In this document: positions 7,034-35,556 of the stretch, in pieces | How the letters are laid out: every line of letters begins with the position of its first letter | Position numbering within the stretch: the first letter of the stretch is position 1 | Source of the DNA: a virus | Lineage: Duplodnaviria; Heunggongvirae; Uroviricota; Caudoviricetes | Virus record (IMG/VR): IMGVR_UViG_3300010365_001407 | Location: 49,463 to 113,462 of that record | DNA length: 64,000 nt | Reading direction: 5' to 3' (one strand) | Position numbers and translations under genes: made by a program | Notes under the pieces: generated by a model | What the model was told of the DNA's origin: nothing | The model's database searches: none | Seen by the model: the letters and a program-made list of their open reading frames with translations, nothing else

Positions 7034-7119
7034 AAGAGAGCAAGGGAATCGAACCCTAGCCAGTTTCCCGACCGTCACGCTTAGCAGGCGGACCCTATCA
7101 CCATCAAGGTTTACTCTCC
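7034..7119 (-). tRNA. tRNA-Ser (anticodon GCU), class II long variable arm
   Basis: Reverse complement has a 7/7 acceptor stem (GGAGAGT/GCTCTCT with G-U pairs), anticodon loop CUGCUAA, a long variable arm and T-arm GGGTTCGATTCCC. Confidence 0.6.
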
Positions 7120-7128
7120 ATTTTTTAG

Positions 7129-7214
7129 CAGTGAACAAGGGAATCGAACCCTAGCCAGTTTCCCGACCGAACTGCTTTCCAGGCAGACCCTATCACCATC
7201 AAGGTTTACTCACT
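7129..7214 (-). tRNA. tRNA-Ser (anticodon GGA), class II
   Basis: Near-identical scaffold to 7034-7119; anticodon loop CUGGAAA; acceptor AGTGAGT/GTTCACT. Confidence 0.6.
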
Positions 7215-7218
7215 ATTG

Positions 7219-7306
7219 CGGAAGAAGTGAGACTTGAACTCACACGGGTGTTACCCCCAACAGTTTTCAAGACTGCGACCCATAGACCAACTTGGCTTAT
7301 TCTTCC
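7219..7306 (-). tRNA. class II tRNA, anticodon read as UGA (Ser); assignment tentative
   Basis: Perfect 7-bp acceptor GGAAGAA/TTCTTCC, T-arm GTGAG-TTCAAGT-CTCAC, anticodon stem-loop GCAGT-CTTGAAA-ACTGT and a long variable arm. The D-arm is hard to place by eye. Confidence 0.5.
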
Positions 7307-7349
7307 ATATTTTTAATTATACCACTTATTGTACCTTTTGATACTTTTG

Positions 7350-7435
7350 TGGAGAAGTGAGGTATCGAACCCCATGCGAGTAAACGCACCCACAGTTTTC
7401 AAGACTGGGTTTAGCACCTGCTAAATTACTCCTCC
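7350..7435 (-). tRNA. class II tRNA, anticodon loop CTTGAAA (UGA-like); identity tentative
   Basis: Acceptor GGAGGAG/CTTCTCC, T-loop TTCGATA and a 17-nt variable arm. It has the same anticodon loop as 7219-7306, so one of the two may be mis-read. Confidence 0.45.
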
Positions 7436-7442
7436 ATATTTG

Positions 7443-7515
7443 TGATTCCAATAGGATTCGAACCTATATCTGATCGTTCGTAGCGACCTATCCTATCCAA
7501 TTGAACGATGGAACC
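7443..7515 (-). tRNA. tRNA-Arg (anticodon ACG)
   Basis: 73 nt; acceptor GGTTCCA/TGGAATC, anticodon stem GGTCG/CGATC with loop CTACGAA, T-arm TAGGTTCGAATCCTA. Confidence 0.6.
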
Positions 7516-7522
7516 AATAAAA

Positions 7523-7552
7523 AAACCCACAAACTTTGAGGTTTGTGGGTTT
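7523..7552. terminator. bidirectional rho-independent terminator hairpin
   Basis: AAACCCACAAAC-TTTGAG-GTTTGTGGGTTT is a perfect 12-bp stem flanked by A-run and T-run. Confidence 0.6.
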
Positions 7553-7727
7553 CAAATAACTTTTAACTTAAAATTATGAATACACAAGAACCTCACTCAA
7601 TTTACTTGAGCGACTTGAAGAACTTGACGATGTAGTGCTTTGCACTCTCACTATGTGAGTACTTATAATTGTTTTCATAACTTATATATTAAAAATTTAT
7701 TCTTTTGTTTTACTTTTTTACTTTTAG

Positions 7728-7820
7728 TAGTCTGAACAGGAATCGAACCTGTGATGCGCGGAAGATACCCCTACTATATATAGGATCGACTACATAATGT
7801 TACCACTACATTATCAGACT
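7728..7820 (-). tRNA. tRNA-like element with irregular core, possibly Ile(UAU)-like or a pseudo-tRNA
   Basis: Canonical acceptor AGTCTGA/TCAGACT and T-arm ACAGG-TTCGATT-CCTGT, but 93 nt long. About 10 extra nt sit between the D-arm and the only good anticodon-like hairpin (TCCTA-TATATAG-TAGGG), which has A at position 33. Confidence 0.35.
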
Positions 7821-7829
7821 ATTTTTTTG

Positions 7830-7901
7830 TGCGGACTGACGGAATCGAACCGACCTCTTATGGGCTTCAACCATACGCTAAACCGTCTCAGCTAAATCCG
7901 C
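7830..7901 (-). tRNA. tRNA-Phe (anticodon GAA)
   Basis: 72 nt; acceptor GCGGATT/AGTCCGC, anticodon stem TATGG/CCATA with loop TTGAAGC, T-loop TTCGATT. Confidence 0.6.
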
Positions 7902-8678
7902 ATTATATTTTTTTATCCATTTTCTTATAGTGTTATCACTAACACCATATTTTTTACCAGTTGAGACATAGTTTGTTTCTTTTATATCTTTTAATAGTTG
8001 GTATAATGAAGGTCTTTCAACCTTTCTTTGTTTAAATGAATCACATTTAGAACACATTTTAGAACGTTTATATATTTCTATACCACATTCACAATACTTT
8101 TTATTATCTAATAGTTCAAATGTTGGTTTGTTTTCTACTAATCCATTTATATAAAGTATTAAACTGTCAATAAAATACTTTTTAGAATCCTTGTTCAATA
8201 ATTGATACTCACTCCATTTTATTCTAATTATATCCCAACCTAAGTCTTCTAAATATTTATTTCTTCTTTTATCACTTTCAATAATTTTATTATCTAAATA
8301 GTGTTGACTACCATCAACCTCTATATCTATTTTCTTATCTAAAATACAAAAGTCTAATTCGTACAATCCAATTCTGTAGGATTTTGTTATATTAATATTT
8401 TTATCTAAAAAAACCTCAGTAAAATATTTCTCAGGATATGATTCATTTCTACTATGATTTAATAGGTAAGGAACTTTATCAGGATTATTTTTTAAATATT
8501 CTTTTCTACTATTTGATATTTTTTTTCTAGTTTCATCTGATAACTTTCTATTTTTACCAATTTCACTTAATTTACTACATCTAATTTTATAATTTGGATT
8601 TAATTTACAATTTGTAATATGTCCACCAAGTTTTAATCCATTTTCTGTTGTAAATCCACAATACTTACACTCCTTCAT
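7878..8678 (-). CDS. homing-endonuclease-like protein (N-terminal Zn finger, NUMOD3-like motifs, Vsr/DUF559-like PD-(D/E)xK domain)
   Basis: 266 aa; CKYCGF...HITNC, LSDETRKKISNSRKEY, and YELDFCILDKKIDIEVDGSQHY...RRNKYLEDLGWDIIRI. Confidence 0.6.
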   Translation of the reverse strand: MKECKYCGFTTENGLKLGGHITNCKLNPNYKIRCSKLSEIGKNRKLSDETRKKISNSRKEYLKNNPDKVPYLLNHSRNESYPEKYFTEVFLDKNINITKSYRIGLYELDFCILDKKIDIEVDGSQHYLDNKIIESDKRRNKYLEDLGWDIIRIKWSEYQLLNKDSKKYFIDSLILYINGLVENKPTFELLDNKKYCECGIEIYKRSKMCSKCDSFKQRKVERPSLYQLLKDIKETNYVSTGKKYGVSDNTIRKWIKKYNADLAETV

Positions 8679-8754
8679 AATTCAATTATCTTTTCTTTTA
8701 TATATAAATAATTGAACTCCCTCTCCTTAAAAAAGCTGAGTGCTTGTAAATTAG

Positions 8755-8833
8755 TTCCCCCGACTGGGTACGATCCAGTAGTCTGCATATTAAAAGTATG
8801 CGGCTTTCTCCATTTAAGCTACGGGAGAGAATT
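8755..8833. repeat. 79-bp direct repeat, copy 1 (contains tRNA-Lys)
   Basis: Identical to 9152-9231: GTTCCCCCGACTGGGTACGATCCAGTAGTCTGCATATTAAAAGTATGCGGCTTTCTCCATTTAAGCTACGGGAGAGAATT. Confidence 0.9.
8756..8828 (-). tRNA. tRNA-Lys (anticodon UUU) with A54:U58-swapped T-loop
   Basis: Acceptor TCTCCCG/CGGGGGA, D-stem GCTT/AAGC, anticodon stem GCATA/TATGC with loop CTTTTAA, T-arm ACTGG-ATCGTAC-CCAGT. Confidence 0.55.
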
Positions 8834-8838
8834 ATTTG

Positions 8839-8911
8839 GGTGAAAGACGGATCCCGAGACCGCATCTCCTCCTTCACAGGGAGGCATCCTAACCTTTAGA
8901 CGACAATCACC
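8839..8911 (-). tRNA. degenerate tRNA-His-like element (anticodon GUG, G-1/C73), possible pseudogene
   Basis: Perfect anticodon arm CCTCC-CTGTGAA-GGAGG with extra 5' G and discriminator C. Only 5/7 acceptor pairs and a non-canonical T-arm (GCGGT-CTCGGGA-TCCGT). Confidence 0.3.
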
Positions 8912-8920
8912 ATATATCAG

Positions 8921-8991
8921 CACGCCATACAGGACTCGAACCTGTAACACTGGTTTTGGAGACCAGGATGATACCATTTCACCAATGACGT
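8921..8991 (-). tRNA. tRNA-Trp (anticodon CCA)
   Basis: 71 nt; acceptor ACGTCAT/ATGGCGT, anticodon stem CTGGT/ACCAG with loop CTCCAAA, T-arm ACAGG-TTCGAGT-CCTGT. Confidence 0.6.
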
Positions 8992-8998
8992 ATTTTGG

Positions 8999-9072
8999 GT
9001 TGACAGACGGGACTTGAACCCGCAATCCCTTGGCTCACAACCAAGTGCTTTAACCAATTAAGCTACCATCAA
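8999..9072 (-). tRNA. tRNA-His (anticodon GUG)
   Basis: Acceptor TTGATGG/CTGTCAA (two G-U pairs), D-stem GCTT/AAGC, anticodon stem CTTGG/CCAAG with loop TTGTGAG, T-arm GCGGG-TTCAAGT-CCCGT, discriminator C. No encoded G-1. Confidence 0.5.
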
Positions 9073-9074
9073 AG

Positions 9075-9146
9075 TGGAGAGAGTGGGGATCGAACCCACG
9101 ACACCTGCGGCTTCAACACAGTGCTCTACCTCTGAGCTACCTCTCC
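9075..9146 (-). tRNA. tRNA-Phe (anticodon GAA), second copy
   Basis: 72 nt; acceptor GGAGAGG/TCTCTCC, D-stem GCTC/GAGC, anticodon stem CTGTG/CGCAG with loop TTGAAGC, T-arm GTGGG-TTCGATC-CCCAC. Confidence 0.6.
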
Positions 9147-9151
9147 TTTTT

Positions 9152-9231
9152 GTTCCCCCGACTGGGTACGATCCAGTAGTCTGCATATTAAAAGTATGCG
9201 GCTTTCTCCATTTAAGCTACGGGAGAGAATT
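9152..9231. repeat. 79-bp direct repeat, copy 2 (contains the second tRNA-Lys)
   Basis: Identical to 8755-8833. Confidence 0.9.
9153..9225 (-). tRNA. tRNA-Lys (anticodon UUU), duplicate
   Basis: Identical sequence to 8756-8828. Confidence 0.55.
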
Positions 9232-10446: not shown

Positions 10447-10665
10447 ATGATCCCATTTTTGTTTTTAATTTTTTATATATACTTTATGCCAGTACGCTCA
10501 AAATCACAACTTAAATACATCTTTGCAATGCGTAAGAAGTACAAATCAAAAAAGAATGCACCCAAAGATAAAAAATGGGTATTCAATGATGAATGGACTA
10601 AAGGTGTTGATACAGGTGGTATGCCAACTAAAGTAAAAGATTTTAAATCATTTAATGTTGATTAA
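10447..10665 (+). CDS. hypothetical small basic protein
   Basis: 72-aa ORF with a hydrophobic N-terminus; weak support. Confidence 0.3.
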   Translation: MIPFLFLIFYIYFMPVRSKSQLKYIFAMRKKYKSKKNAPKDKKWVFNDEWTKGVDTGGMPTKVKDFKSFNVD

Positions 10666-11066
10666 GCTAATGCTTCTTTAATTACTTCTGATACTACTTT
10701 TCTGTCAACTTGTAAAGTTGCAAACTCTTTCATAATACCACCAACATTAGTTACACCAGATGCTACAAGTTCATTTACTTTAGTAACAATATCCTCTCTT
10801 GTTAAAGCAGCTGGAAGTAAAGCTTCTACAATAGTTAATTGTAATTTAGACTCTTCATCACCACTTGTTGCAATAACCTCATTCAAAGATTTTGCAGTTT
10901 TGTTAAGGATTTTGATTACTTCTGCATCAGAAAGACAATCAACTCCTGTATTTTTTTCAATAGTTTGGATCTCTCCTTTTACTACAGAAAGTAAATTTTT
11001 TGCTACTGCATTTCTTTCTTTGAAAGCAGTCATGTAGTCTTTGCTAATTTTTTCTTTTAAACTCAT
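10662..11066 (-). CDS. GatB/YqeY-domain protein
   Basis: 134 aa; MSLKEKISKDYMTAFKERNAVAKNLLSVVKGEIQ...LLPAALTREDIVTKV...ASGVTNVGGIMKEF matches the YqeY / GatB C-terminal-domain family end to end. Confidence 0.7.
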   Translation of the reverse strand: MSLKEKISKDYMTAFKERNAVAKNLLSVVKGEIQTIEKNTGVDCLSDAEVIKILNKTAKSLNEVIATSGDEESKLQLTIVEALLPAALTREDIVTKVNELVASGVTNVGGIMKEFATLQVDRKVVSEVIKEALA

Positions 11067-11594: not shown

Positions 11595-13220
11595 ATGAAA
11601 TACATTAAATTATATGAAGCCTTTGAATCACAAGTGATTACTAATACACTTAAATTCTTAACTAAAAAAATAGGACAAGATACTGCAAACTATTTCTCTA
11701 ATGATATTAAAAGATTAATGAGTCAATATAATATTCCTATCTCAAGGATAAAAGAAGATGATTTACAATATCTTAGAACATCTAAAGCGATTAAAGTTAA
11801 AAGCAATGAACCTGTAAATAATAATTATGATATTTATTGTATTAAGTATTGGTTCTCTTTAGAAAAAGGATTTTTGGGTAAAACTGCTACAGGTAATTTA
11901 ACTACACCATATGTTAGACTTGAAAATGATTATTCTGATAAAAATAAAAAATTCAGTGAGGATCAATTTAATTATATTAAAGATGACTTAGGAATAACAA
12001 AAGGTAAATTATCATCGGTATTAAATTATAGAGATTTAAAAACTGGTGATGATGTTCTTGCTATATTTGGAGATAACAATTCTAACTCAACTAAAGTAAG
12101 TGTAGGTAAAGTATTTATAGATACTCAGAATTATAATACAATCTTTGTTTATAATAATGATAGAAATGATGGTGTTAATGTTTATGGTGATCAACCAACT
12201 TTTGCACAAGATTATCAATATACTTGGAGATTAGGTCGTGATAATGAAAATAATGGTGATATTATAACAGATGGTGACCATTTTAGATTACATCTTTATA
12301 TTAAAGATAACAGACAATTAAGATATGAAAATAAAACTATCAAAAGTAAACATAAAGCAAATTTGGCAGACTTTAATAAACCATTAAATGATAGTGGTTA
12401 TATTATAGATTGGACTATACACAATCAAAATATTATTGAAAATGCTATAGAAAAATCAGACTTTGCTATTATTGTTTATATGGATAAATTACTTTCATTA
12501 CCAAGTAGAAATGTTATACAAAGTAATAGAAGAGATGCTAGAAAAGGTGCCACTGCTCTTATGTCAGATTATGATATAAAACAAATAAATATTAATAACT
12601 ATACTACTAAATTAGTTACTAAGTATGGATTACATAAAGATGCAGAAGATTTTTCTAAATTAAATAAAGTTGTTAATAGTATAATGTGTAATAAGTTTAT
12701 TATGTTTAATCTTTATTTAGACAAAACTATGGGATCATTAAATAATCTTATTAATCAATTATATAATTTAGTAAATGAAGATGAAAGTGATAAAGAGTAT
12801 TATTTTAATAATGTTTTATCTGTATTTAAAAATAGTAGAGATAGAAGTACAGATATTAATCAATTATATAAATCTAACTTAAATATTATTTTTACCTCTG
12901 GTGATGAAAATCTTATTACTATAATAAAAAGACTTTTAAATTTAGGAGAAAAGATAAATAAATATATTGAGTCTGTTGATATTGAGAATATACATGATAT
13001 AATAATGATTAAATATAAGTTAAAAACTATAGAAAGTTTTATATTAGATGGTAAACATAAATTATCAACACCTTATAATGATGTTTTAAATTCATTTGAT
13101 GAATCAAATAAAAGTATGAATAGATATGTTGGATATTGTGATGGTGCAACAGATGAATTTGTTTACTCAATGGAAAGATTAGATATAATTGAGAAGTTTG
13201 TTAATAGTTTATTAAAGTAA
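11595..13220 (+). CDS. hypothetical protein
   Basis: 541-aa ORF; no recognisable domain. Confidence 0.55.
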   Translation: MKYIKLYEAFESQVITNTLKFLTKKIGQDTANYFSNDIKRLMSQYNIPISRIKEDDLQYLRTSKAIKVKSNEPVNNNYDIYCIKYWFSLEKGFLGKTATGNLTTPYVRLENDYSDKNKKFSEDQFNYIKDDLGITKGKLSSVLNYRDLKTGDDVLAIFGDNNSNSTKVSVGKVFIDTQNYNTIFVYNNDRNDGVNVYGDQPTFAQDYQYTWRLGRDNENNGDIITDGDHFRLHLYIKDNRQLRYENKTIKSKHKANLADFNKPLNDSGYIIDWTIHNQNIIENAIEKSDFAIIVYMDKLLSLPSRNVIQSNRRDARKGATALMSDYDIKQININNYTTKLVTKYGLHKDAEDFSKLNKVVNSIMCNKFIMFNLYLDKTMGSLNNLINQLYNLVNEDESDKEYYFNNVLSVFKNSRDRSTDINQLYKSNLNIIFTSGDENLITIIKRLLNLGEKINKYIESVDIENIHDIIMIKYKLKTIESFILDGKHKLSTPYNDVLNSFDESNKSMNRYVGYCDGATDEFVYSMERLDIIEKFVNSLLK

Positions 13221-13562
13221 AATCAAATCATTGATTCGATCATTTATTTCATATAATAAACCCATACATTCTCTTTTCAAATCCTTTAGTCTATTAAAAT
13301 CACTGACACTAATTGGTTTATTTAGAGCATCATCTATACCTCTTATTTCTAATTCAATATTGTCTCTGATTAAACCAATCTCAAATAGAATATCTCCTTT
13401 GATTTCATTTATTAATAAACTAAAATAAGGATTACTCATAAGTCTTTCTTTGTATGTAGATACATTAAAACTTTTGATAATCCTTTTTAAGTTTTTTATT
13501 ACTTCTTCTTCACTACCTGAACTATGGAGTTTTTCAAAGAAGTCTTCTATGTTATGTTTCAT
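13212..13562 (-). CDS. hypothetical protein
   Basis: 116-aa ORF overlapping the start of the downstream homing-endonuclease gene. Confidence 0.45.
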   Translation of the reverse strand: MKHNIEDFFEKLHSSGSEEEVIKNLKRIIKSFNVSTYKERLMSNPYFSLLINEIKGDILFEIGLIRDNIELEIRGIDDALNKPISVSDFNRLKDLKRECMGLLYEINDRINDLILL

Positions 13563-14428
13563 GTTTTTAAATCTCTTTTAACTTTATAAATAAGTGATTG
13601 GCTAAATCCAGTATTTTCTTTTATCTTTTTAATATCTTGTCCCTCAATAAGTAGATTTTGTATAATGTTATATTTATCACATTTTAATGTTCTATCAACC
13701 ACTCTATCCCATTTTCTTTTCATTATAGGTAAATTTAGAGACAATGCTCTATTCTTAATTTTAAGAACTACTTTATTTTTAGTTATACATATTTTTGAAC
13801 ATCCATCAGGTGATATATAAAAATTCTTTTTTGATGATGTTAGTATATAATATGCTTCTTCTAAAAAATATCCCCATGAAGAATCACATTTAAGATATAA
13901 TAAACCCTTTTTACTTATACAACCATCACCATCTATAAATCCAATCATCATGCTAAATAGTTGGTCATTGGTTATGTTATAAGGTATTTTTACTGGATTC
14001 TTGGTTTTATTAGACAACCAATTAAAGTCATTAGATAATTTACTCACACTTTTTCTATCTGAAATTACAAGTCTTATATCATTTTTATACTCATATTTGC
14101 ATACTTTTCCTATATGTTCTTCAATTTTTAAAATATATTCTTTATCTTTTATTGATAAGTTTATCTGAATGTTGGATTTTTTGTATATATGACCATCAGC
14201 AAGTATAAAACCTATCCAATAACAAGTTATATTATCAGTGTAATCAATTATTTTTGAATATTTTGAGTTATTTTTTGATTCATTAGAACCTTTTTTTATT
14301 TTATTTAAACAAGCAATTTTTTGTATATAGTTCCAAGAAAGATTTGTATCTTTAATTATTTCATCTTTAGATTTTTTATTATAATTTGATTTCAAATAAT
14401 CAATCAATTTTATTTTAGATGGTTTCAT
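13559..14428 (-). CDS. LAGLIDADG homing endonuclease, two-motif single chain
   Basis: 289 aa; YWIGFILADGHI and MMIGFIDGDGCI LAGLIDADG motifs, HTH-like tail; promoter-like motif at 14430-14458. Confidence 0.75.
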   Translation of the reverse strand: MKPSKIKLIDYLKSNYNKKSKDEIIKDTNLSWNYIQKIACLNKIKKGSNESKNNSKYSKIIDYTDNITCYWIGFILADGHIYKKSNIQINLSIKDKEYILKIEEHIGKVCKYEYKNDIRLVISDRKSVSKLSNDFNWLSNKTKNPVKIPYNITNDQLFSMMIGFIDGDGCISKKGLLYLKCDSSWGYFLEEAYYILTSSKKNFYISPDGCSKICITKNKVVLKIKNRALSLNLPIMKRKWDRVVDRTLKCDKYNIIQNLLIEGQDIKKIKENTGFSQSLIYKVKRDLKT

Positions 14429-14458: not shown

Positions 14459-14893
14459 TTAAACCATACCTCTTTTCATTTCCCTTTCTATATCTTTCTT
14501 TTTAATATCTTCTCTTTTATTCCATAATTTTTTACCAGTTGCCACACCAATCTTAATCTTAATTCTGTTTCTTTTTATAAAAACACTTAATGGTATAGCT
14601 GTTGTTCCTTTATCTTGTAGTTTTCTTTCAATTCTATTGATTTCTTTTCTGCTTAAAAGTAACTTCTTATCCCTGTTCTCTTCATGTTTTGTTAATGGAT
14701 GTGATGATTTATATCTTGCCACATTCATATTTTTGAGCCATACTTCACCATCTTTTAAGTAAATAAAAGAATCTGCTAAAGTAACATTACCCATCCTGAT
14801 TGACTTTACTTCACTTCCAACCAATACAACACCTGCTTCAAATTCCTCATGTATGTGGAATTCATAATATGCTTTTCTATTATTTACTATCAT
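14459..14893 (-). CDS. smpB: SsrA-binding protein SmpB
   Basis: 144 aa; NRKAYYEFHIHEEFEAGVVLVGSEVKSIRMGNVTLADSFIYLKDGEVWL...HPLTKHE...KLLLSRKEINRIERKLQDKG matches bacterial SmpB along its whole length. Confidence 0.8.
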   Translation of the reverse strand: MIVNNRKAYYEFHIHEEFEAGVVLVGSEVKSIRMGNVTLADSFIYLKDGEVWLKNMNVARYKSSHPLTKHEENRDKKLLLSRKEINRIERKLQDKGTTAIPLSVFIKRNRIKIKIGVATGKKLWNKREDIKKKDIEREMKRGMV

Positions 14894-15386
14894 ATTTTAT
14901 ATCTATTTGTGATCCACCTTCACGGTTTTTCATTACTCTTACTCTATCTTCTCTGATTATACCTACAAAGTCAGCCATGTACAATCCTGTGTTACCACCA
15001 CTGAAATTATATTCATCATTACCTGTAGTAGTATATATTGGACAAGTGATTAATAGTTTGAAATTACTATCTACTAATTCATTTGCTATTCTTTGAAGAG
15101 AATTTTTTATTACATTATACCTACTTGTTTCACCTCTACCCATCATAAAATTATTTATGTCTAATAAGAAGTGACTTGGTGTTTCAGTTTTATCATTCAA
15201 TACTGAATCAATTTTAGAATCTCTAATATAAGAAAGCATAGAAAAAGATGAATTTATTTCTGGTAACTCAATATGAGAAACTTTAGAAATAATTTCATCT
15301 TTAATTCTTTCTTCTTTGAAAGTGTAACCTAATAGAGAAATATTTGATTTATTAATTAATTCAAATAAATATTCTGTGGGTTCCAT
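14880..15386 (-). CDS. hypothetical protein
   Basis: 168-aa ORF between smpB and the thioredoxin gene. Confidence 0.5.
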   Translation of the reverse strand: MEPTEYLFELINKSNISLLGYTFKEERIKDEIISKVSHIELPEINSSFSMLSYIRDSKIDSVLNDKTETPSHFLLDINNFMMGRGETSRYNVIKNSLQRIANELVDSNFKLLITCPIYTTTGNDEYNFSGGNTGLYMADFVGIIREDRVRVMKNREGGSQIDIKYDSK

Positions 15387-15390
15387 TAAA

Positions 15391-15711
15391 TTAGTTTAAG
15401 TGAGTGTTAATCAATTCCGCTAATTTTTCTTTAGTTGTCATTCCTGTACTTCTTTCAACAATCTCTCCATTTTTGAAAAGAATTAATGTAGGAATATTTC
15501 TAACTCCTAATTCAACAAGAATGTCTCTATTCTCATCAGCATTTAATTTACCAACTTGTAATTGCTCCATAAACTCTAAAGAGATTTGATCCACAATTGG
15601 TGAAATTTGAAGGCACGGCGCACACCATTTTGCCCAAACATCTATCAAAACCAAATCATTTTTAATAAAACTTTCATAGGTTGAGGGTGTTAAATCTACT
15701 GCATTTGTCAT
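15391..15711 (-). CDS. trxA: thioredoxin
   Basis: 106 aa; WAKWCAPCLQISP contains the CxxC active site (WCAPC here, canonical WCGPC), and the overall length and layout fit thioredoxin. Confidence 0.75.
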   Translation of the reverse strand: MTNAVDLTPSTYESFIKNDLVLIDVWAKWCAPCLQISPIVDQISLEFMEQLQVGKLNADENRDILVELGVRNIPTLILFKNGEIVERSTGMTTKEKLAELINTHLN

Positions 15712-15799: not shown

Positions 15800-16522
15800 A
15801 TGGAAAATAATAATACAGAAATAGCATACATATATGCCTTATTAGATCCAAGAGATAATGAGGTTAGATATATAGGAAAAACAACACAACCAAAGAATAG
15901 ATTATCAGGTCACATAAGAGAATGTAAAAATATAAAATCTCTACATTATAGAGCAAAATGGATTAGATCTCTCTTAAAGAAAGAACTATTACCTATAATA
16001 AAATTTCTAAAGATATGTCCTTTATCTGATTTTGTTAAATATGAAACAGAGTATATACAAATATATAAAAATGATAAATTAACCAATTCTGATGAAACTG
16101 GTAGTGGTAATACAGGTAGAAAAAAAGAAGTATTGGATAGACAATCAAAATCTAGTGGTAGAATAGTTTATCAATACAATTTAGATGGTAAATTTATTAA
16201 AGAATATCAATCTGTTAGATTTGCTGCAGATTGTCTAAATTTATCACATTCAAATATATCAAGGTCTTGTAATGGAATATCTAAACATGCAGGTGGATTT
16301 ATATTTAGATATGAAAAAGTAAATGTTGAAAAATTAGAAAATCCAAATGCAGTAAAGAAATCAGTCATAGAAATAGATACTTTAGGTAAAGAAATAGGAA
16401 GATGGAACTCACTTATGGATTGTAGTAGAGATACTGGCTTAAGAAATGAGGCAATTAGCAAACTTTGTAATAAAAGATATGGATCCAAATCAGTAGGTGG
16501 TAGATATTTTAAGTTTGAATGA
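15800..16522 (+). CDS. GIY-YIG homing endonuclease
   Basis: 240 aa; IAYIYALLDPRDNEVRYIGKTTQPKNRLSGHIRE GIY-YIG motif at the N-terminus; basic C-terminal DNA-binding region. Confidence 0.7.
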   Translation: MENNNTEIAYIYALLDPRDNEVRYIGKTTQPKNRLSGHIRECKNIKSLHYRAKWIRSLLKKELLPIIKFLKICPLSDFVKYETEYIQIYKNDKLTNSDETGSGNTGRKKEVLDRQSKSSGRIVYQYNLDGKFIKEYQSVRFAADCLNLSHSNISRSCNGISKHAGGFIFRYEKVNVEKLENPNAVKKSVIEIDTLGKEIGRWNSLMDCSRDTGLRNEAISKLCNKRYGSKSVGGRYFKFE

Positions 16523-16550: not shown

Positions 16551-16783
16551 TTCAAATCTAAGTATTTTTTGAAATTTGTAATAAATTCACTTTCATCTAC
16601 AATATCACTTGCTATAAGATTTTTATCAATGAAAAAGGAATACATAAACTTATCATCTAAATCATCTAGATCATCTAGTATTAGTATTTTATTTTCACTA
16701 AATAATAAAGTTATTTTATTCTTTTCAATAAAATAATCTATTGGTTTAAACTCACTAATTATATTCTCAGTATTCATATTCAT
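16547..16783 (-). CDS. hypothetical acidic protein
   Basis: 78-aa ORF. Confidence 0.4.
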   Translation of the reverse strand: MNMNTENIISEFKPIDYFIEKNKITLLFSENKILILDDLDDLDDKFMYSFFIDKNLIASDIVDESEFITNFKKYLDLN

Positions 16784-18039
16784 TATATTGTGAAAAGTTT
16801 ATCTATAACTTCTTTATCATCTGTTTCAGATATTTCTTCTAGTATTCTACTTACTTTACCTTTTGTATCATTGACAATTTCTTTTCTAACAGATAATTCA
16901 AGTAGTAATTTAGTTTGTTCATCTAACTCAATATCTTTATCTAACTTATTCTTTTCTAATACAGATATTGCAATTATAGGGTCATCCTTATACACTTCAA
17001 GAAGTTTCTTTATAAGATTAATCTGTTCTGATAACTTTAGACCTTTTAGATTAGATATTGCATTAGGTGCATTGTAAACAAATCTTGAAAGAAGTTTAAT
17101 ATCTTCTTCACTTACTTCTTTATCAACATAATCTGGTGTATCATAAAAATAATGTAAGTGTTCCCAAATTAATTGTAGATTTTGATTTTTATTACTATAA
17201 ATATTTCTAATATAGAATAAATAGTTATCAGCTTTTAAATCTGATAGGTTTTTATCTTCAAATACTCTTTGATTACTAGATACTAACTTCCAAAGTTTAA
17301 CATCTTTGTTTTGTGAAACTCTGAGCCATTCAATACATTGAACATCTTTCTGTAAATAAAAGAACTCACTTAATCTATCAATGTATTTAGCAAATACCTC
17401 TAAATATCTTTCTTGAAATCTAACTTTATATGGACTTAAATGAACATTTTCACTTAAAGCATATTGTAAGATATTTAATTCAAAGTCAGTAAGAGTAGCA
17501 TTTAATTCATCTGCTTTTTTGATTATTCTTAATACTGTATGAGAAGGTGTCTTAACATTAGTAATTCTTAATATTCCTGTCTCTAAGAATTTTTCAAATT
17601 CATCAGTCCAGTAATATTCATCATTATCAATTGAATATCCAATTGCTGTACAATTAATATCAAAAGAATCAATTACCACTCTTGGTTCTGGTGAATTAGA
17701 TTGATACTTTATATAATTGAATATACCATCTTTAGTAGATTCAGTTATACAATAAAAATCTTTTTCTTTAGTCATAAATGCAATACCATTATAATCTTCA
17801 TACCAAATATCTTCTTTGGTAGAGTGTTCATAAAGTGTTTGAGATTTATCTTGTATTAATTTTTCTAATATACCATCAAATAAAAAAACATCAATATCAT
17901 TGATGATGGCTTTGTTACCTGATACTTCTTCCCAGATTAGGTTTGCAATAGATCCACCAGCAATAAAACCACTTTGAGGAAGACCCCAAGTGGTTTTAAT
18001 TCTATCAATTGCTTTTTCTGCTAATTGTTTTACATTCAT
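16783..18039 (-). CDS. pol-beta-superfamily nucleotidyltransferase (class-I-CCA-like or CD-NTase-like head), function unknown
   Basis: 418 aa; N-terminal GFIAGGSIANLIWEEVSGNKAIINDIDVFLF fits the hG[GS]...[DE]h[DE]h nucleotidyltransferase signature. Confidence 0.5.
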   Translation of the reverse strand: MNVKQLAEKAIDRIKTTWGLPQSGFIAGGSIANLIWEEVSGNKAIINDIDVFLFDGILEKLIQDKSQTLYEHSTKEDIWYEDYNGIAFMTKEKDFYCITESTKDGIFNYIKYQSNSPEPRVVIDSFDINCTAIGYSIDNDEYYWTDEFEKFLETGILRITNVKTPSHTVLRIIKKADELNATLTDFELNILQYALSENVHLSPYKVRFQERYLEVFAKYIDRLSEFFYLQKDVQCIEWLRVSQNKDVKLWKLVSSNQRVFEDKNLSDLKADNYLFYIRNIYSNKNQNLQLIWEHLHYFYDTPDYVDKEVSEEDIKLLSRFVYNAPNAISNLKGLKLSEQINLIKKLLEVYKDDPIIAISVLEKNKLDKDIELDEQTKLLLELSVRKEIVNDTKGKVSRILEEISETDDKEVIDKLFTI

Positions 18040-34467: not shown

Positions 34468-35556
34468 ATGACACAAGAAATTTTAAACCCAGAATTAGGT
34501 AATCCAGACTTTGATCTTTTATATGCAGATGATATATATAAAAGAGGACAAAAGTTACAAGATAAATACCTTGATTCACTTTATGACTCTATTCAAATAG
34601 AGACCCCATCTGCTGGTTCAGTAGTAAGATCTACTTATTTGGGTATGATGTCCAATCAATATGTGTTCAGTGTTGTTGGTTACAAAGATGATGTTCGTAT
34701 TGAGAACAAACCAGGTGAGGCAAAATACCTTAACTCCATTGAAGTTGGAGAACAAGTTGATTTGTTAATCACTGAGGTAGTACAAAGTACTTACTTCATC
34801 AAAGGAAGTATTGCTTCTTTATATGAATCTAGAGCTCATGAAAATATGAAGTCTTTAGAGGAAGGAGAATCAGTAACTGCTTATATTAGAGCTTTAAACC
34901 CTGCAGGTTACGATGTAGAGTTGACAAATGGAGGAGTTACTCTTCCTGCGTTTATGCCTAATACCTTGGCAGGTATCAACAAGCTTTATGACCCAAGTTC
35001 TATTATTGGAGACACTTTCCAAGTAATGGTTGAGTCATTCTCTGAACATGAAGGAACTTACATAGTAAGTCGTAGAAAGTATCTACAAAGCTTGATTCCT
35101 GATGAAATCAGTAATCTTGAGTTCAATACTCTATATTCAGGTAGAGTTACTGGTACTACACCATTTGGTATCTTTGTTGAGTTTAATGAATGTCTAACAG
35201 GTATGATCCACAAAGCTAATGTAATAGAAGAGTGGCAAAACAGAATCTCTGAAATCAAACCAGGACAAGAAATTGAATTCTATATCAAGGAGATTATCAA
35301 AGATAAGATTATCCTTACACAAGTTTTGAGAGAAACTTTATGGGACACTATCAAAAATGGTCAATTGATTGAAGGTAGAGTAAAAGATGTTAAACAATTT
35401 GGTACTTTGGTTATCTTAGATGATGAAACAGTTGGATTAATCCACACATCAGAAATGGAGAAACTTGGTAAGAAGTTCACATCTGGACAAGATATTAGAG
35501 TGAAAGTTCTATCAGTAGATAGAAGTTCACGTAAAATCTTCTTAACTTTAGGATAA
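34468..35556 (+). CDS. ribosomal protein S1-like protein (four S1 RNA-binding repeats)
   Basis: 362 aa; four S1 repeats of about 70 aa, e.g. GRVTGTTPFGIFVEFNECLTGMIHKANV and GRVKDVKQFGTLVILDDETVGLIHTSEM; ends VDRSSRKIFLTL. Confidence 0.7.
   Translation: MTQEILNPELGNPDFDLLYADDIYKRGQKLQDKYLDSLYDSIQIETPSAGSVVRSTYLGMMSNQYVFSVVGYKDDVRIENKPGEAKYLNSIEVGEQVDLLITEVVQSTYFIKGSIASLYESRAHENMKSLEEGESVTAYIRALNPAGYDVELTNGGVTLPAFMPNTLAGINKLYDPSSIIGDTFQVMVESFSEHEGTYIVSRRKYLQSLIPDEISNLEFNTLYSGRVTGTTPFGIFVEFNECLTGMIHKANVIEEWQNRISEIKPGQEIEFYIKEIIKDKIILTQVLRETLWDTIKNGQLIEGRVKDVKQFGTLVILDDETVGLIHTSEMEKLGKKFTSGQDIRVKVLSVDRSSRKIFLTLG

What the first reader, a model, noticed from the sequence alone, without database searches (positions are those of the whole stretch)
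14459..14893. Phage-encoded SmpB with no recognisable tmRNA in the window
The 144-aa ORF matches bacterial SmpB along its whole length, including the conserved N-terminal NRKA..YEF..E.G..L.GSEVKS.R, the central HPLTKHE and the basic tail. SmpB only works with tmRNA (ssrA) in trans-translation. I looked for a tRNA-like 3' end (GGTTCGA.TCC...CCA) outside the tRNA arrays and found none. The phage therefore either supplies only the protein partner to a host tmRNA, or carries ssrA elsewhere in its genome.
Basis: partly seen in the sequence, partly recalled or inferred. Interest (0 to 1): 0.7.

Follow-up and report, generated by a model that had tools for sequence, protein, structure and literature searches.

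The report
Phage SmpB with a hidden tmRNA
The gene is a genuine ribosome-rescue protein (SmpB) of a giant bacteriophage, and its RNA partner is probably not missing: complete related genomes, and another contig from the same sample, carry an unusual tmRNA far from SmpB that the standard detection programs do not recognise.

Summary
Observation confirmed. Window 14459-14893 (-) encodes a full-length SmpB (Pfam 177 bits; NCBIfam equivalog 180 bits, cutoff 130) under purifying selection, and no tmRNA lies in the 64-kb window. The window is a mid-genome piece of a ~0.6-Mb 'huge phage', collinear with 294-361 kb of LR745206 (Al-Shayeb 2020), a dataset already reported to contain SmpB and tmRNAs. 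ARAGORN on two complete relatives (634,780 and 642,428 bp), and Rfam on one of them, found no tmRNA, which pointed to an orphan SmpB. That reading is probably wrong. A weak nhmmer lead exposed a conserved 349-383-nt RNA 128-183 kb from SmpB in both complete genomes, in a 587-kb scaffold of the window's own sub-lineage, and on a contig from the window's own sample. It has a 7-bp acceptor stem with invariant G3:U70, a covarying T-stem, a long helix 2, PK1 and a 27-30-codon start-less tag frame (97.6% of cells paired; 25 compensatory pairs; 0/500 shuffles). Its T-loop is GGCAGUA rather than TΨCRA, and its D-loop lacks GG. Most likely this phage lineage encodes its own divergent trans-translation pair.

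The parts
14459..14893 (-). smpB: 144-aa SsrA-binding protein, full length including the C-terminal tail
   Evidence: Pfam PF01668 at 177 bits; NCBIfam equivalogs at 180 and 168 bits; PDB SmpB hits down to E 3e-34; core residues conserved against E. coli SmpB; dN/dS 0.03-0.3 within the clade; PHROG 6791.
14880..15386 (-). 168-aa ORF of unknown function directly upstream; its end overlaps the smpB start by 14 nt, so the two are probably co-transcribed
   Evidence: ORF list; no Pfam or PHROG hit; a homologue sits in the same position in 19 of the viral SmpB loci L030-L052 and in LR745206 and in the 587-kb scaffold.
15391..15711 (-). Thioredoxin gene, a conserved upstream neighbour of smpB
   Evidence: Pfam PF00085 at 85.7 bits. 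The Trx-SmpB adjacency is kept in viral loci down to 44% SmpB identity.
13212..13562 (-). 116-aa ORF of unknown function, the conserved downstream neighbour of smpB
   Evidence: It lies directly after smpB in relatives that lack the endonuclease insertion.
13559..14428 (-). Free-standing LAGLIDADG homing endonuclease inserted between smpB and the 116-aa ORF; it is not part of the SmpB function
   Evidence: Pfam PF14528. It is absent at this site in LR745206 and in the 587-kb scaffold, and present in L030, L031 and L045.
15800..16522 (+). Free-standing GIY-YIG/NUMOD homing endonuclease upstream of the thioredoxin gene; a mobile insertion
   Evidence: Pfam PF01541, PF07453 and PF22083. Its presence varies among relatives.
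7035..9226 (-). tRNA gene array, checked as the only tRNA-like sequence in the window; it contains no tmRNA
   Evidence: ARAGORN finds 9 tRNAs. Rfam finds 11 tRNA-clan hits and no tmRNA family. The relaxed-threshold ARAGORN 'permuted tmRNA' calls at 8584-9209 are assembled from tRNA pieces.

Best explanation
The ORF is a functional SmpB, vertically inherited in a clade of ~0.45-0.65-Mb phages. These are relatives of the 634,780- and 642,428-bp 'Mahaphage' genomes, which are predicted to infect Bacteroidota. Its RNA partner is not in the window, but this lineage does encode one: a 349-383-nt tmRNA homologue located 128-183 kb from smpB and a few kb downstream of the major capsid gene. This RNA keeps the parts a tmRNA needs to work. 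They are an acceptor stem with the G3:U70 alanine identity pair and an A discriminator, a T-stem, helix 2, PK1, a resume context UAAA(C/U)|GGN, and a 27-30-codon tag frame ending in hydrophobic residues and TAA. It has lost the canonical T-loop (GGCAGUA instead of TΨCRANY) and the D-loop GG, and its T-stem has 6 bp. These changes would explain why ARAGORN and Rfam do not call it. Inferred mechanism: late in a long infection the phage expresses its own SmpB and tmRNA, with an RNase R-family enzyme also encoded. This pair would rescue ribosomes stalled on truncated mRNAs and add a phage-specific tag of about 28 residues. What is shown: SmpB identity and purifying selection; the RNA's conservation, structure, covariation and co-residence with SmpB. 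What is inferred: that the window's own genome carries the RNA, that the RNA is charged with alanine and translated, and that phage SmpB is its cognate partner.
For: SmpB: full-length family membership. Core and tail residues are conserved and tail length matches Bacteroidota SmpBs. dN/dS is 0.03-0.3. More than 1000 metagenomic homologues were found, and the top 120 are all at least 64% identical to the window protein. The gene order ligase-sigma-p418-Trx-p168-SmpB-p116 is conserved.

The RNA was found from a weak nhmmer hit shared by both complete genomes and read directly at LR745206 204891-205271 and LR756502 231979-232357. There are 35 distinct copies among 48 elements. RNAalifold recovers the tmRNA architecture on its own. 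The structure counts are 97.6% of cells paired against 36-52% when partners are slid, 25 compensatory pairs against 3-7, and 0/500 shuffles reaching any measure. All 5 counted T-stem pairs covary. Acceptor pair 5:68 occurs as AU/GC/GU/CG, and G3:U70 is invariant. The second stem of PK1 is 82% paired against 21-61% when slid, with covariation. The tag frame is always 27-30 codons with whole-codon length differences, and always ends in TAA. An intrinsic terminator lies 5 nt after the 3' end.

Homology to accepted tmRNAs: the profile hits the ARAGORN-called phage tmRNAs of L071/72/76 at E 4e-4. The helix-2 motif CTAAGCCTGTRAATGAAT is shared with many ARAGORN-positive phage tmRNAs. ARAGORN at 85% thresholds calls the intermediate forms L239/L246/L235 with identical boundaries; for L239 its tag also matches the inferred one.

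Co-residence with SmpB on one sequence: LR745206, LR756502, ENA KRAE22-1 scaffold_1 (587,058 bp; RNA at ~228.0 kb, SmpB at ~411.1 kb), and UViG_3300027996_002186, UViG_3300042261_002385 and UViG_3300042887_005324.

Link to the window: the window is 100.000% identical over 11,862 nt to a contig of sample 3300025737. A contig from the same sample (L326, 25.7% GC) carries the RNA beside genes syntenic with LR745206 205.7-207.1 kb.
Against: The RNA has not been shown on the same molecule as this window. The link rests on shared sample, clade and synteny. The closest co-resident case has an SmpB from a cluster whose representative is 88% identical to the window's. Rfam's tmRNA models do not report the RNA even at E<=10 on an 801-nt stretch, and ARAGORN's default thresholds reject all 24 distinct copies then in hand. 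The canonical T-loop and D-loop GG are both absent, so charging, EF-Tu binding and SmpB binding cannot be assumed. The coding signature in the tag frame is weak: codon-position diversity is 0.21/0.19/0.26, and there are more non-synonymous than synonymous codon differences. No expression data exist. The structure was derived from the same alignment on which it was counted, which inflates the paired percentage, although it does not inflate the compensatory-pair counts measured against the slid controls.
Confidence: 0.75

Rival explanations
1. Orphan SmpB. The window's phage encodes only the protein, which works with the host's tmRNA. It might stabilise and load host tmRNA while host gene expression is shut down.
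For: No tmRNA is found in the window. Standard tools find none in two complete relatives. No tmRNA lies within 10 kb of any of about 30 viral SmpB loci that are at least 49% identical to the window protein. The SmpB groups with Bacteroidota SmpBs and has a Bacteroidota-like tail, so it could plausibly bind a host tmRNA.
Against: Every complete or near-complete genome of the clade that could be examined does carry the divergent tmRNA-like RNA, and a copy exists in the window's own sample. The negative calls are explained by the altered T-loop. Use of host tmRNA in addition is not excluded.
Confidence: 0.1
2. The RNA derives from tmRNA but no longer performs trans-translation. It could be a decoy that titrates host SmpB, EF-Tu or AlaRS, or blocks host tagging, as reported for the CDS-less tmRNA-like RNA of mycobacteriophage DS6A. 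On this reading, phage SmpB has a separate or regulatory role.
For: Loss of the canonical T-loop and D-loop GG together with a 6-bp T-stem could impair normal function. PMC11915505 reports that the DS6A form inhibits endogenous tmRNA in E. coli. The coding signature in the tag frame is weak.
Against: All 35 distinct copies keep an in-frame 27-30-codon tag with whole-codon length differences, a conserved resume context and a TAA stop. G3:U70 and the discriminator A are invariant, and PK1 and helix 2 covary. An SmpB with an intact tail is co-inherited with the RNA. A decoy would not need a conserved reading frame.
Confidence: 0.1
3. A different, still unrecognised tmRNA or partner RNA lies elsewhere in the genome, and the RNA described here is an unrelated structured RNA that only resembles tmRNA.
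For: The curated tmRNA models do not score it. One defining tmRNA feature, the canonical T-loop, is not met.
Against: Six separate tmRNA features coincide in the canonical order: acceptor stem with G3:U70 and A73, adjacent T-arm, helix 2 with the CTAAGCNTGT motif, PK1, resume context, and tag frame. There is also profile-level similarity to ARAGORN-validated phage tmRNAs, and the family grades into forms that ARAGORN does call. No other candidate appeared in 1.28 Mb of complete genomes.
Confidence: 0.03
4. The SmpB is a host gene caught at a prophage boundary or in a mis-binned contig, not a phage gene.
For: Many 'phage' database SmpB hits are exactly this. One example is the CP-1639 record, where smpB-ssrA belongs to the annotated chromosomal integration site. 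GC-rich viral loci also show ssrA immediately downstream of smpB.
Against: The gene sits 14 kb into a 64-kb stretch that is collinear with a curated circular phage genome. It has phage-like 27% GC and lies between phage genes and homing endonucleases. The clade is at least 64% identical internally but at most 51% identical to any cellular SmpB found.
Confidence: 0.01

Closest known systems
Bacterial SmpB-tmRNA trans-translation system (E. coli, T. thermophilus; PDB 7acj, 6q97, 4v8q)
   Same: The SmpB fold and functional residues are shared, including the GKK...DKR tail motif. The RNA keeps the acceptor stem with G3:U70, helix 2, PK1, a resume codon preceded by U-A-R-N-N, and a tag frame ending in hydrophobic residues. 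An RNase R-family gene is also present in the genomes.
   Different: It is encoded by a virus. smpB and ssrA are 128-183 kb apart rather than adjacent. The T-loop is GGCAGUA instead of TΨCRANY, there is no D-loop GG, and the T-stem has 6 bp. The tag is 27-30 aa where about 10 aa is usual, and its N-terminal and middle part (G[NK][VT]NEV..xEDLV.AL) is better conserved than its C-terminus. The 3' CCA is not encoded (A|CAA or A|CTA).
SmpB and tmRNAs reported in huge phages (Al-Shayeb et al. 2020, PMC7162821)
   Same: The phage clade is the same: the closest relatives, LR745206 and LR756502, come from that study. SmpB is annotated in the paper's supplementary GenBank files for at least 8 genomes.
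   Different: That study assigned tmRNAs with ARAGORN, which does not call the RNA in these genomes. I found no description of this T-loop variant, or of its pairing with SmpB, in the papers searched.
Canonical phage-encoded tmRNAs, with or without SmpB (phage G, PMC12484599; viral loci L071/72/76, L087, L092)
   Same: These are large phages carrying ssrA near tRNA genes. L071 and L092 have long tags of a related pattern (ANVELSTWTFEDAMAF...). The helix-2 sequence motif is shared. SmpB lies on the same contig.
   Different: They keep the GGG-TTCGAnT-CCC T-arm and the GG-containing D-loop, and ARAGORN calls them at default thresholds.
CDS-less tmRNA-like RNA of mycobacteriophage DS6A and mitochondrial (jakobid) tmRNAs
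   Same: These are reduced or aberrant tmRNA derivatives found outside free-living bacteria. The mitochondrial form co-occurs with a dedicated SmpB (PMC11915505).
   Different: Those forms lack a tag reading frame. The RNA described here is full-size with a conserved tag frame.
Host smpB-ssrA flanks in prophage records (for example CP-1639, Staphylococcus phage StauST398-5, Klebsiella ST15-OXA48phi14.1)
   Same: These are SmpB ORFs found in 'phage' sequence records.
   Different: In those records SmpB lies at a record end, beside a canonical ssrA that serves as the integration site, so it is host DNA. In the window, SmpB is internal to a lytic-type huge-phage genome.

Membership tests
SmpB (PF01668 / TIGR00086 / NF003843) | Full-length match above the curated family thresholds | tested here: met
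   Pfam 177.2 bits (cutoff 27), covering profile positions 1-141 of 143. NF003843 scores 180.4 bits (cutoff 130) and TIGR00086 scores 168.2 bits (cutoff 119).
SmpB (PF01668 / TIGR00086 / NF003843) | Conserved core residues (E. coli numbering N17, G33, E40-V-K-S43, R45, L90-92, K124, G132-K-K134, K138, I142-K143) | tested here: met
   These positions are invariant in the alignment with E. coli SmpB and five clade members, and across the groups compared. Their functional roles come from my own knowledge of the SmpB literature and were not tested here.
SmpB (PF01668 / TIGR00086 / NF003843) | C-terminal basic tail present and not truncated | tested here: met
   The tail GKKLWNKREDIKKKDIEREMKRGMV is present. 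It is 4 residues shorter than in E. coli but as long as in Bacteroidota SmpBs. An aromatic residue at position 136 and I/L/V at 147 are the common state among the cellular SmpBs sampled.
SmpB (PF01668 / TIGR00086 / NF003843) | Maintained by purifying selection | tested here: met
   Pairwise NG86 dN/dS is 0.027 (window vs L030) and 0.154 (window vs L031). It is 0.05-0.33 for the other pairs whose dS is not saturated.
SmpB (PF01668 / TIGR00086 / NF003843) | A tmRNA partner available in the same genome | tested here: inconclusive
   The window has none. Six larger sequences of the lineage carry SmpB together with the divergent tmRNA-like RNA, and a copy exists in the window's own sample. The window's full genome could not be read.
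SmpB (PF01668 / TIGR00086 / NF003843) | Binds the tmRNA tRNA-like domain and the ribosomal A site | not testable with these tools
   This needs biochemistry or structural work.
tmRNA (Rfam clan CL00001; RF00023 and relatives): the partner RNA, located outside the window | A 7-bp acceptor stem joining the 5' and 3' ends, with G3:U70 and an unpaired discriminator A | tested here: met
   The pairs in columns 1-7 with 395-401 are 100% paired. G:U at pair 3 is present in 19 of 19 sequences. Pair 5 occurs as AU 9, GC 4, GU 4 and CG 2. The same holds in all 35 distinct copies.
tmRNA (Rfam clan CL00001; RF00023 and relatives): the partner RNA, located outside the window | A T-arm abutting the acceptor 3' strand and no anticodon arm | tested here: met
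   The T-stem is 100% paired and all 5 counted pairs show compensatory changes. Helix 2 follows the D-region directly.
tmRNA (Rfam clan CL00001; RF00023 and relatives): the partner RNA, located outside the window | Canonical T-loop (T54-Ψ55-C56-R57-A58) and D-loop GG | tested here: not met
   Among the 35 copies, the loop is GGCAGTA in 23, GGCAGTG in 3 and GGCGGTA in 2. Only 3 intermediate copies keep TTCG. The D-region is TAGAAT[AT]GATT, with no GG, and the T-stem has 6 bp. Canonical phage tmRNAs in the same scans have GGG-TTCGAnT-CCC.
tmRNA (Rfam clan CL00001; RF00023 and relatives): the partner RNA, located outside the window | A long helix 2 connecting the tRNA-like domain to the body, with the conserved 3'-strand motif | tested here: met
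   Columns 21-49 pair with 339-372: 24 pairs at 97-100% pairing, 6 of them compensatory. The motif CTAAGCCTGT compares with E. coli CTAAGCATGT (my reading).
tmRNA (Rfam clan CL00001; RF00023 and relatives): the partner RNA, located outside the window | Pseudoknot PK1 upstream of the resume codon | tested here: met
   The P3 hairpin (columns 50-54 with 69-73) is 100% paired. Its loop pairs with a downstream segment (columns 58-61 with 86-89): 82% paired against 21-61% when slid, with CG/TA/AT covariation. Support is moderate.
tmRNA (Rfam clan CL00001; RF00023 and relatives): the partner RNA, located outside the window | An internal tag reading frame without a start codon, ending in hydrophobic residues and a stop | tested here: met
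   All 35 distinct copies have 27-30 codons after UAAA[CU], starting at GGN (GAC in one copy) and ending ...[LVA][VATE][VA]-TAA, with whole-codon length differences. The third-position excess is only modest.
tmRNA (Rfam clan CL00001; RF00023 and relatives): the partner RNA, located outside the window | Recognised by curated detectors (Rfam tmRNA models, ARAGORN default) | tested here: not met
   Rfam at gathering thresholds found nothing over all of LR745206, and nothing at E<=10 on the locus itself. ARAGORN at default thresholds called 0 of 24 copies; at 85% thresholds it called 3 of 24.
tmRNA (Rfam clan CL00001; RF00023 and relatives): the partner RNA, located outside the window | Alanylation, SmpB and EF-Tu binding, and tagging activity | not testable with these tools
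   This needs experiments.

The most novel reading that the evidence does not exclude
The phage runs a private, orthogonal trans-translation system. Its SmpB has co-evolved with a tmRNA whose elbow is remodelled (no T-loop TΨC, no D-loop GG, and a 13-bp acceptor/T stack). On this reading the phage pair is insulated from the host SmpB/tmRNA, and stalled chains receive a roughly 28-residue phage-specific tag. The conserved N-terminal and middle part of that tag would be read by a phage-chosen adaptor or protease rather than by the host ClpXP/SspB route. Clade-specific SmpB residues (window V58, H65, E72, D94, N109, K114) would be the candidate specificity determinants.
Probability: 0.3. Interest if true: 0.8.

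Novelty: new variant of a known kind. Interest (0 to 1): 0.62.

Why it matters
Phage-encoded SmpB is already on record, so the ORF alone is ordinary. Three things make the finding more than that.

First, the largest known phages appear to carry a complete ribosome-rescue pair, plus an RNase R-family enzyme, whose RNA half is not called by the two detectors used here, ARAGORN (also used in the huge-phage papers read) and Rfam. Surveys that rely on such detectors would score these genomes as tmRNA-negative, and an 'SmpB without tmRNA' result would be read as dependence on the host.

Second, from my own knowledge the T-loop/D-loop elbow is among the most conserved parts of tmRNA. A family of at least 35 distinct sequences that replaces it while keeping G3:U70, helix 2, PK1 and a tag frame is a natural experiment on what that elbow is needed for.

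Third, the long conserved tag suggests a fate for tagged proteins that the phage, not the host, decides. Each of these points can be tested directly with the sequences listed in this report.

Tried and rejected
1. Orphan SmpB. This was my working conclusion after ARAGORN (default and relaxed thresholds) on two complete relatives and Rfam at gathering thresholds on all 634,780 bp of LR745206 found no tmRNA. About 30 viral SmpB loci also had none within 10 kb. I dropped it when nhmmer, using ARAGORN-called phage tmRNAs as queries, gave weak high-bias hits at analogous sites in both genomes, and the DNA at those sites read as a tmRNA.

2. Dominant-negative or crippled SmpB (H136W, W147I, shorter tail). 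Rejected: these states are the norm in Bacteroidota and most of the other cellular SmpBs sampled, and E. coli is the outlier.

3. Host flank at a prophage integration site. Rejected by synteny with curated phage genomes, although this explanation does hold for many database 'phage SmpB' hits.

4. ARAGORN 'permuted tmRNA' calls at relaxed thresholds in the window (8584-9209) and in LR745206. Rejected as chimeras of neighbouring tRNAs with implausible tags.

5. The 14-mer scan with TATGCAGGTATCGG was mostly chance hits. It was useful only because it included L326.

6. The single metagenome scan did not return sample 3300025737. I made the link through IMG/VR contig L326 and exact-protein look-ups instead.

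7. The Al-Shayeb supplementary GenBank files list tRNAs, but none of the 200 stored files has a tmRNA feature, so they say nothing about whether the authors saw this RNA.

8. The codon-position test on the tag frame gave only a modest third-position excess, so I do not lean on it.

9. The Rfam tRNA-Sec hit at 7351-7435 and the other class-II tRNA-like hits read as tRNA-Ser isoacceptors, not suppressors or tmRNA-like domains.

10. I did not build a covariance model for the new family.
Full report
**1. The observation**

The window holds a 144-aa ORF at 14459-14893 on the minus strand. It is SmpB by every sequence test available.
- Pfam PF01668 scores 177 bits over profile positions 1-141 of 143.
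- Both NCBIfam equivalog models are well above their cutoffs: 180 against 130, and 168 against 119.
- It aligns end to end with solved SmpB chains, best 5zey_C at E 3e-34.

Aligned with E. coli SmpB, taken from the integration-site flank of record AJ304858, window residue i corresponds to E. coli residue i+12. Among the residues shared with E. coli are N17, the E40-V-K-S43 strand, R45, L90-92, K124, G132-K-K134, K138 and I142-K143.

Some tail substitutions look suspicious against E. coli: H136 to W, W147 to I, and a tail four residues shorter. These are in fact the common state. Bacteroidota and most other cellular SmpBs sampled have Y/W/F at 136 and I/L/V at 147, with equally short tails.

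Within the phage clade, pairwise dN/dS is 0.03-0.3.

No tmRNA is in the window. ARAGORN finds 9 tRNAs and no tmRNA. Rfam finds only tRNA-clan hits at gathering thresholds, and no tmRNA family at E<=10. Relaxed ARAGORN thresholds give only chimeric 'permuted' calls inside the tRNA array.

**2. What the window is**

The window has 26.7% GC. It has no megablast match in the phage collection, but 33 of its 67 ORFs of at least 80 aa match LR745206 collinearly at 31-79% amino-acid identity. Window position 1 to 64000 corresponds, in reverse orientation, to about 361 to 294 kb of that genome.

LR745206 (634,780 bp) and LR756502 (642,428 bp) are two of the four largest complete, curated, circular genomes of Al-Shayeb et al. 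2020. They belong to the 'Mahaphage' clade and are predicted to replicate in Bacteroidetes. [quoted passage not shown] Its supplementary GenBank files annotate SmpB in at least eight genomes. A phage-encoded SmpB is therefore a known kind of gene.

The family is large. More than 1000 metagenomic proteins match at E<=1e-10, and the top 120 are all at least 64% identical to the window protein. Some sit on contigs of 551-641 kb. The closest cellular SmpBs found among 185,579 species genomes reach only 39-51% identity. In a rough neighbour-joining tree without support values, the phage proteins group with Bacteroidota SmpBs.

The gene order ligase - sigma factor - p418 - thioredoxin - p168 - SmpB - p116 - p541 is conserved through the clade. 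The sigma - Trx - SmpB core persists down to about 44% SmpB identity. In the window, two free-standing homing endonucleases have been inserted into this block: LAGLIDADG at 13559-14428 and GIY-YIG at 15800-16522.

Many other 'phage SmpB' database hits are a different thing. They are host smpB-ssrA flanks at prophage integration sites.

**3. The apparent answer, and why it was wrong**

I assembled both complete relatives from 26 fetched pieces. ARAGORN found 59 and 46 tRNAs respectively and no tmRNA, at default and at 95% thresholds. At 90% and 85% thresholds the only calls in LR745206 were 'permuted' ones with implausible tags, several of them inside tRNA arrays. LR756502 gave no call at 95% or 90%. 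An E. coli ssrA control was detected.

Rfam at gathering thresholds over all of LR745206 found tRNAs, a GOLLD RNA and a DUF805b motif, but no tmRNA family.

Among 80 viral SmpB loci, none of the roughly 30 whose SmpB is at least 49% identical to the window's had a tmRNA within 10 kb. ARAGORN did find tmRNAs next to host-type smpB in GC-rich prophage flanks. It also found them in a few true phage contigs, including two at 28-29% GC (L087, L092), so low GC alone does not blind it.

At that point the evidence pointed to an orphan SmpB.

As a last control, I searched the genomes with nhmmer using the ARAGORN-called phage tmRNAs as queries. Nothing significant appeared. However, two queries (L071, L092) gave weak, high-bias hits (E 0.5-3) at analogous positions in both genomes.

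Reading the DNA at those positions showed an intergenic segment, 72% identical between the two genomes:
- It begins GGGGATG or GGGGGTG and ends CATCTCC-A or CACCTCC-A. That is a 7-bp acceptor stem with a G3:U70 wobble, a compensatory change at pair 5, and an unpaired A.
- It contains CTAAGCCTGT, which compares with the E. coli helix-2 sequence CTAAGCATGT.
- It contains an ATGCAGG/ATCGG...CCGAT hairpin in the position of PK1.
- It has an open frame ending ...LAVA-TAA or ...PATV-TAA.
- It is followed by a strong terminator hairpin.

**4. Testing the candidate RNA**

Pattern scans of IMG/VR and of the JGI metagenomes with conserved blocks, followed by an nhmmer profile built from five seed copies, recovered 48 full-length elements (35 distinct) of 349-383 nt, scoring 135-399 bits.

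RNAalifold, run on 19 distinct sequences with no structure supplied, returned the tmRNA architecture:
- P1, columns 1-7 with 395-401;
- a long helix 2, columns 21-49 with 339-372;
- hairpin P3, columns 50-54 with 69-73;
- body hairpins;
- a T-stem directly abutting the acceptor 3' strand;
- no anticodon arm.

Counting pairs on that structure gave the following:

| Measure | Observed | Partners slid by 1-3 columns | Shuffles reaching it |
|---|---|---|---|
| Cells forming a standard pair | 97.6% | 36-52% | 0/500 |
| Pairs with changes on both sides | 25 | 3-7 | 0/500 |

G3:U70 is invariant. Pair 5:68 occurs as AU, GC, GU and CG. All five counted T-stem pairs covary.

The second stem of PK1 (P3 loop columns 58-61 with columns 86-89) is 82% paired in register against 21-61% when slid. 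It covaries as GTCA/TGAC, GTTA/TAAC, GATA/TATC and GTCT/AGGC.

Every distinct copy has a frame of 27-30 codons with these properties:
- It starts at GGN (GAC in one copy) right after UAAA(C/U). E. coli has AUAGUC|GCA in the equivalent place.
- Its length differs between copies only by whole codons.
- It ends in TAA.

The encoded tags follow the pattern G[NK][VT]N[EQ]V[GA][TS]xED[LI]V[AF][AC]L[QKR]NN...[LVA][VAT][VA]. They resemble the long tags of the ARAGORN-called phage tmRNAs L071 and L092 (ANVELSTWTFEDAMAF...). The third-codon-position excess is modest (0.26 against 0.21 and 0.19), so I treat frame preservation, not substitution pattern, as the evidence for translation.

An intrinsic terminator (14-bp stem plus a T-run) starts 5 nt after the discriminator base. 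Two terminator-like sites were found in the region against 0.1 expected; the other one is the T-arm itself.

**5. Why the standard tools fail**

The tRNA-like elbow is remodelled:

| Feature | Divergent family (35 distinct copies) | Canonical phage tmRNAs from the same scans |
|---|---|---|
| T-loop | GGCAGTA in 23, GGCAGTG in 3, GGCGGTA in 2 | TTCGAnT |
| T-stem | 6 bp in 31 of 35 copies | 5 bp (GGG...CCC arm) |
| D-region | TAGAAT[AT]GATT, no GG | GG-containing (...GGTTTTGAC...) |

Rfam does not report any tmRNA family for the LR745206 copy, even at E<=10 on an 801-nt stretch. ARAGORN at default thresholds calls none of the 24 distinct copies then in hand.

The family is nevertheless connected to accepted tmRNAs in three ways:
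- Its profile hits the L071/72/76 tmRNAs at E 4e-4.
- Its helix-2 motif also retrieves many ARAGORN-positive phage tmRNAs.
- Three intermediate members that keep TTCG in the loop (L239, L246, L235) are called by ARAGORN at 85% thresholds, with exactly my boundaries. For L239 the tag is also the one I inferred from the resume context (GKTNEVASREELVAALRNNILKVNEVAVA); for L246 and L235 ARAGORN reports only the last 8 residues.

Because one defining feature of tmRNA, the canonical T-loop, was tested and is not met, I describe this RNA as a divergent tmRNA homologue. I do not file it as an ordinary family member.

**6. Linking the RNA to SmpB and to this window**

SmpB and the RNA lie on the same sequence in six cases:

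| Sequence | Length (bp) | RNA position | SmpB position | Separation |
|---|---|---|---|---|
| LR745206 | 634,780 | 204,891-205,271 | 332,961-333,383 | 128 kb |
| LR756502 | 642,428 | 231,979-232,357 | 367,600-368,013 | 135 kb |
| ENA KRAE22-1 scaffold_1 | 587,058 | ~227,987-228,351 | 411,116-411,550 | 183 kb |
| UViG_3300027996_002186 | 483,262 | not determined | on contig | not determined |
| UViG_3300042261_002385 | 436,265 | not determined | on contig | not determined |
| UViG_3300042887_005324 | 174,041 | not determined | on contig | not determined |

A 656,306-bp JGI contig also carries the RNA, and the cluster table lists a contig of that same length for the same SmpB sequence.

The 587-kb scaffold belongs to the window's own sub-lineage:
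- Its SmpB (P0251) belongs to a cluster whose representative is 88% identical to the window's.
- Its SmpB locus has the window's gene order, including the GIY-YIG endonuclease.
- Its RNA is about 93% identical to the copy in L326 over the aligned region, with acceptor pair 5:68 flipped from C:G to G:C.

L326 is an IMG/VR contig from sample 3300025737. The window is 100.000% identical over 11,862 nt to another contig of that same sample, and 100% identical over 4,437 nt to a Logan contig. L326 has 25.7% GC, and its genes next to the RNA are syntenic with LR745206 205.7-207.1 kb.

By collinearity with LR745206, the RNA would lie roughly 90 kb beyond the right end of the window. I could not read the window's full genome, so presence of the RNA in this exact genome is inferred, at about 85% confidence.

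**7. Mechanism**

What is shown: an SmpB that looks intact and is under purifying selection, and a co-inherited RNA that keeps the elements a tmRNA needs for alanine charging (G3:U70, A73), ribosome entry (helix 2, PK1, resume context) and tagging (a conserved frame).

What is inferred: the two work together as a phage-encoded trans-translation pair.

Three pieces of context fit that inference:
- The RNA gene lies a few kb downstream of the gp23-type major capsid gene in all three genomes examined.
- An RNase R-family gene (OB_Dis3/CSD2/RNB/S1) and an NFACT-R protein lie within 9 kb of the RNA in the 587- and 656-kb contigs. Both are conserved in the two complete relatives, although in LR756502 the RNase R homologue lies far from the RNA.
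- The window itself adds tRNA arrays, a YqeY-like protein and an S1-domain protein.

From established knowledge, RNase R is the nuclease that tmRNA-SmpB recruits to degrade non-stop mRNA, and some phages (lambda-immP22 hybrids, Mu) depend on host trans-translation. That is background, not something tested here.

The 3' CCA is not encoded (A|CAA or A|CTA), so a CCA-adding enzyme would be needed.

Whether the remodelled elbow makes the pair orthogonal to the host system is open. Six SmpB positions are clade-specific against 81 cellular sequences (V58, H65, E72, D94, N109 and K114 in window numbering). Some of them are shared with phages that have canonical tmRNAs, so this is only a lead.

**8. 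Comparison with what is known, and novelty**

Phage SmpB, phage tmRNA and their presence in huge phages are all published (PMC7162821; phage G tmRNA in PMC12484599).

The 2025 tmRNA census (PMC11915505) covered bacteria, archaea, organelles and RefSeq viruses. It recognises standard, intron-containing and permuted gene forms, plus CDS-less forms in organelles and in phage DS6A. The passages I read do not mention this T-loop variant.

In the GenBank phage collection, only LR745206 and LR756502 contain the RNA, and both records are unannotated.

My literature access is partial, so prior description elsewhere cannot be excluded.

I rate the ORF itself as already known, and the system as a whole as a new variant of a known kind.

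**9. Verdict**

The finding is real and its interpretation was sound. Interest is 0.62. The SmpB ORF alone would score about 0.2. The value lies in the unrecognised partner RNA, and in the demonstration that 'SmpB without tmRNA' calls in giant phages can be detector artefacts.

Noticed in passing
window 7035-9226 (-): The tRNA array has 9 ARAGORN calls plus 4 further Rfam tRNA-clan hits. The Rfam tRNA-Sec hit at 7351-7435 (52.9 bits, cutoff 47) reads as a class-II tRNA-Ser(UGA). The hits at 7130-7213 and 7035-7118 look like Ser(GGA) and Ser(GCU). ARAGORN's 94-nt 'tRNA-??? (cgat)' at 7727-7820, with a 4-base anticodon, remains unexplained; it could hold an intron or be degenerate.
   Followed up: partly
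window 13559-14428 (-) and 15800-16522 (+): Two free-standing homing endonucleases (LAGLIDADG and GIY-YIG/NUMOD) bracket the Trx-p168-SmpB cassette. Their presence varies among close relatives. The LAGLIDADG gene is absent at this site in LR745206 and the 587-kb scaffold. The GIY-YIG gene is absent in LR745206 and in L030/L031 but present in the 587-kb scaffold.
   Followed up: partly
window 14880-15386 (-): A 168-aa ORF with no Pfam or PHROG family overlaps the smpB start by 14 nt. It is conserved in that position in most of the clade, so it may be a functional partner of SmpB.
   Followed up: partly
window 15391-15711 (-); loci L030-L083: A thioredoxin gene stays next to, or within about 2 kb upstream of, smpB in huge-phage contigs, even where SmpB identity to the window has dropped to 44%. 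I have no explanation for this linkage.
   Followed up: partly
window 10662-11066 (-) and 34468-35556 (+): Further translation-related genes lie near smpB: a YqeY-like protein (PF09424, 47 bits) and a 362-aa protein with S1 RNA-binding domains (PF00575, 77 bits).
   Followed up: no
L388/L389 1-6025; LR745206 196.2-202.9 kb: An RNase R/II-family gene (OB_Dis3, CSD2, RNB, S1), a gp23-type major capsid gene and a small NFACT-R-domain protein lie within 9 kb upstream of the divergent tmRNA. All three are conserved in the complete relatives, although in LR756502 the RNase R homologue is distant from the RNA. NFACT-R is the RNA-binding domain of ribosome-quality-control factors.
   Followed up: partly
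L012 24875-25280 (LR745206, ~420.9 kb): A full-length GOLLD RNA (Rfam RF02032, 287 bits, E 1e-80) lies among the tRNA genes of the relative genome.
   Followed up: no
L008 6891-7271, L021 31979-32357, L326 9061-9423 (-), L388 9098-9462: The divergent tmRNA has a 6-bp T-stem in 31 of 35 distinct copies, giving a 13-bp acceptor/T coaxial stack where 12 bp is usual. From my own knowledge, this geometry is otherwise known from tRNA-Sec. Its consequence for EF-Tu binding is unknown.
   Followed up: no
window 16783-18039 (-): A 418-aa conserved neighbour has only sub-threshold hits to a nucleotidyltransferase family (PF06042, 24.1 bits, cutoff 25) and a weak precomputed Gad2 hit. Since the tmRNA gene lacks an encoded CCA, a nucleotidyltransferase here would be worth checking.
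   Followed up: no
window 14459-14893 (-): PHROG 6791, which this SmpB matches at 162 bits, is labelled 'unknown function' in PHROGs v4, although it is plainly the SmpB family.
   Followed up: no
phage-collection hits H29-H59 (for example AJ304858.2 = L032): Most SmpB hits in named, cultured-phage records lie at record ends beside a canonical ssrA, so they are host DNA at the prophage integration site. Counts of 'phage-encoded SmpB' taken from such collections are inflated.
   Followed up: partly
window 40280-41389 (+), 61943-63640 (-), 44973-50399 (+), 51912-57320 (+): Other content of the window includes an M16-family peptidase, an SbcC-like nuclease subunit (PHROG 77, 235 bits), and two ORFs of about 1800 aa with no confident family.
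   Followed up: no
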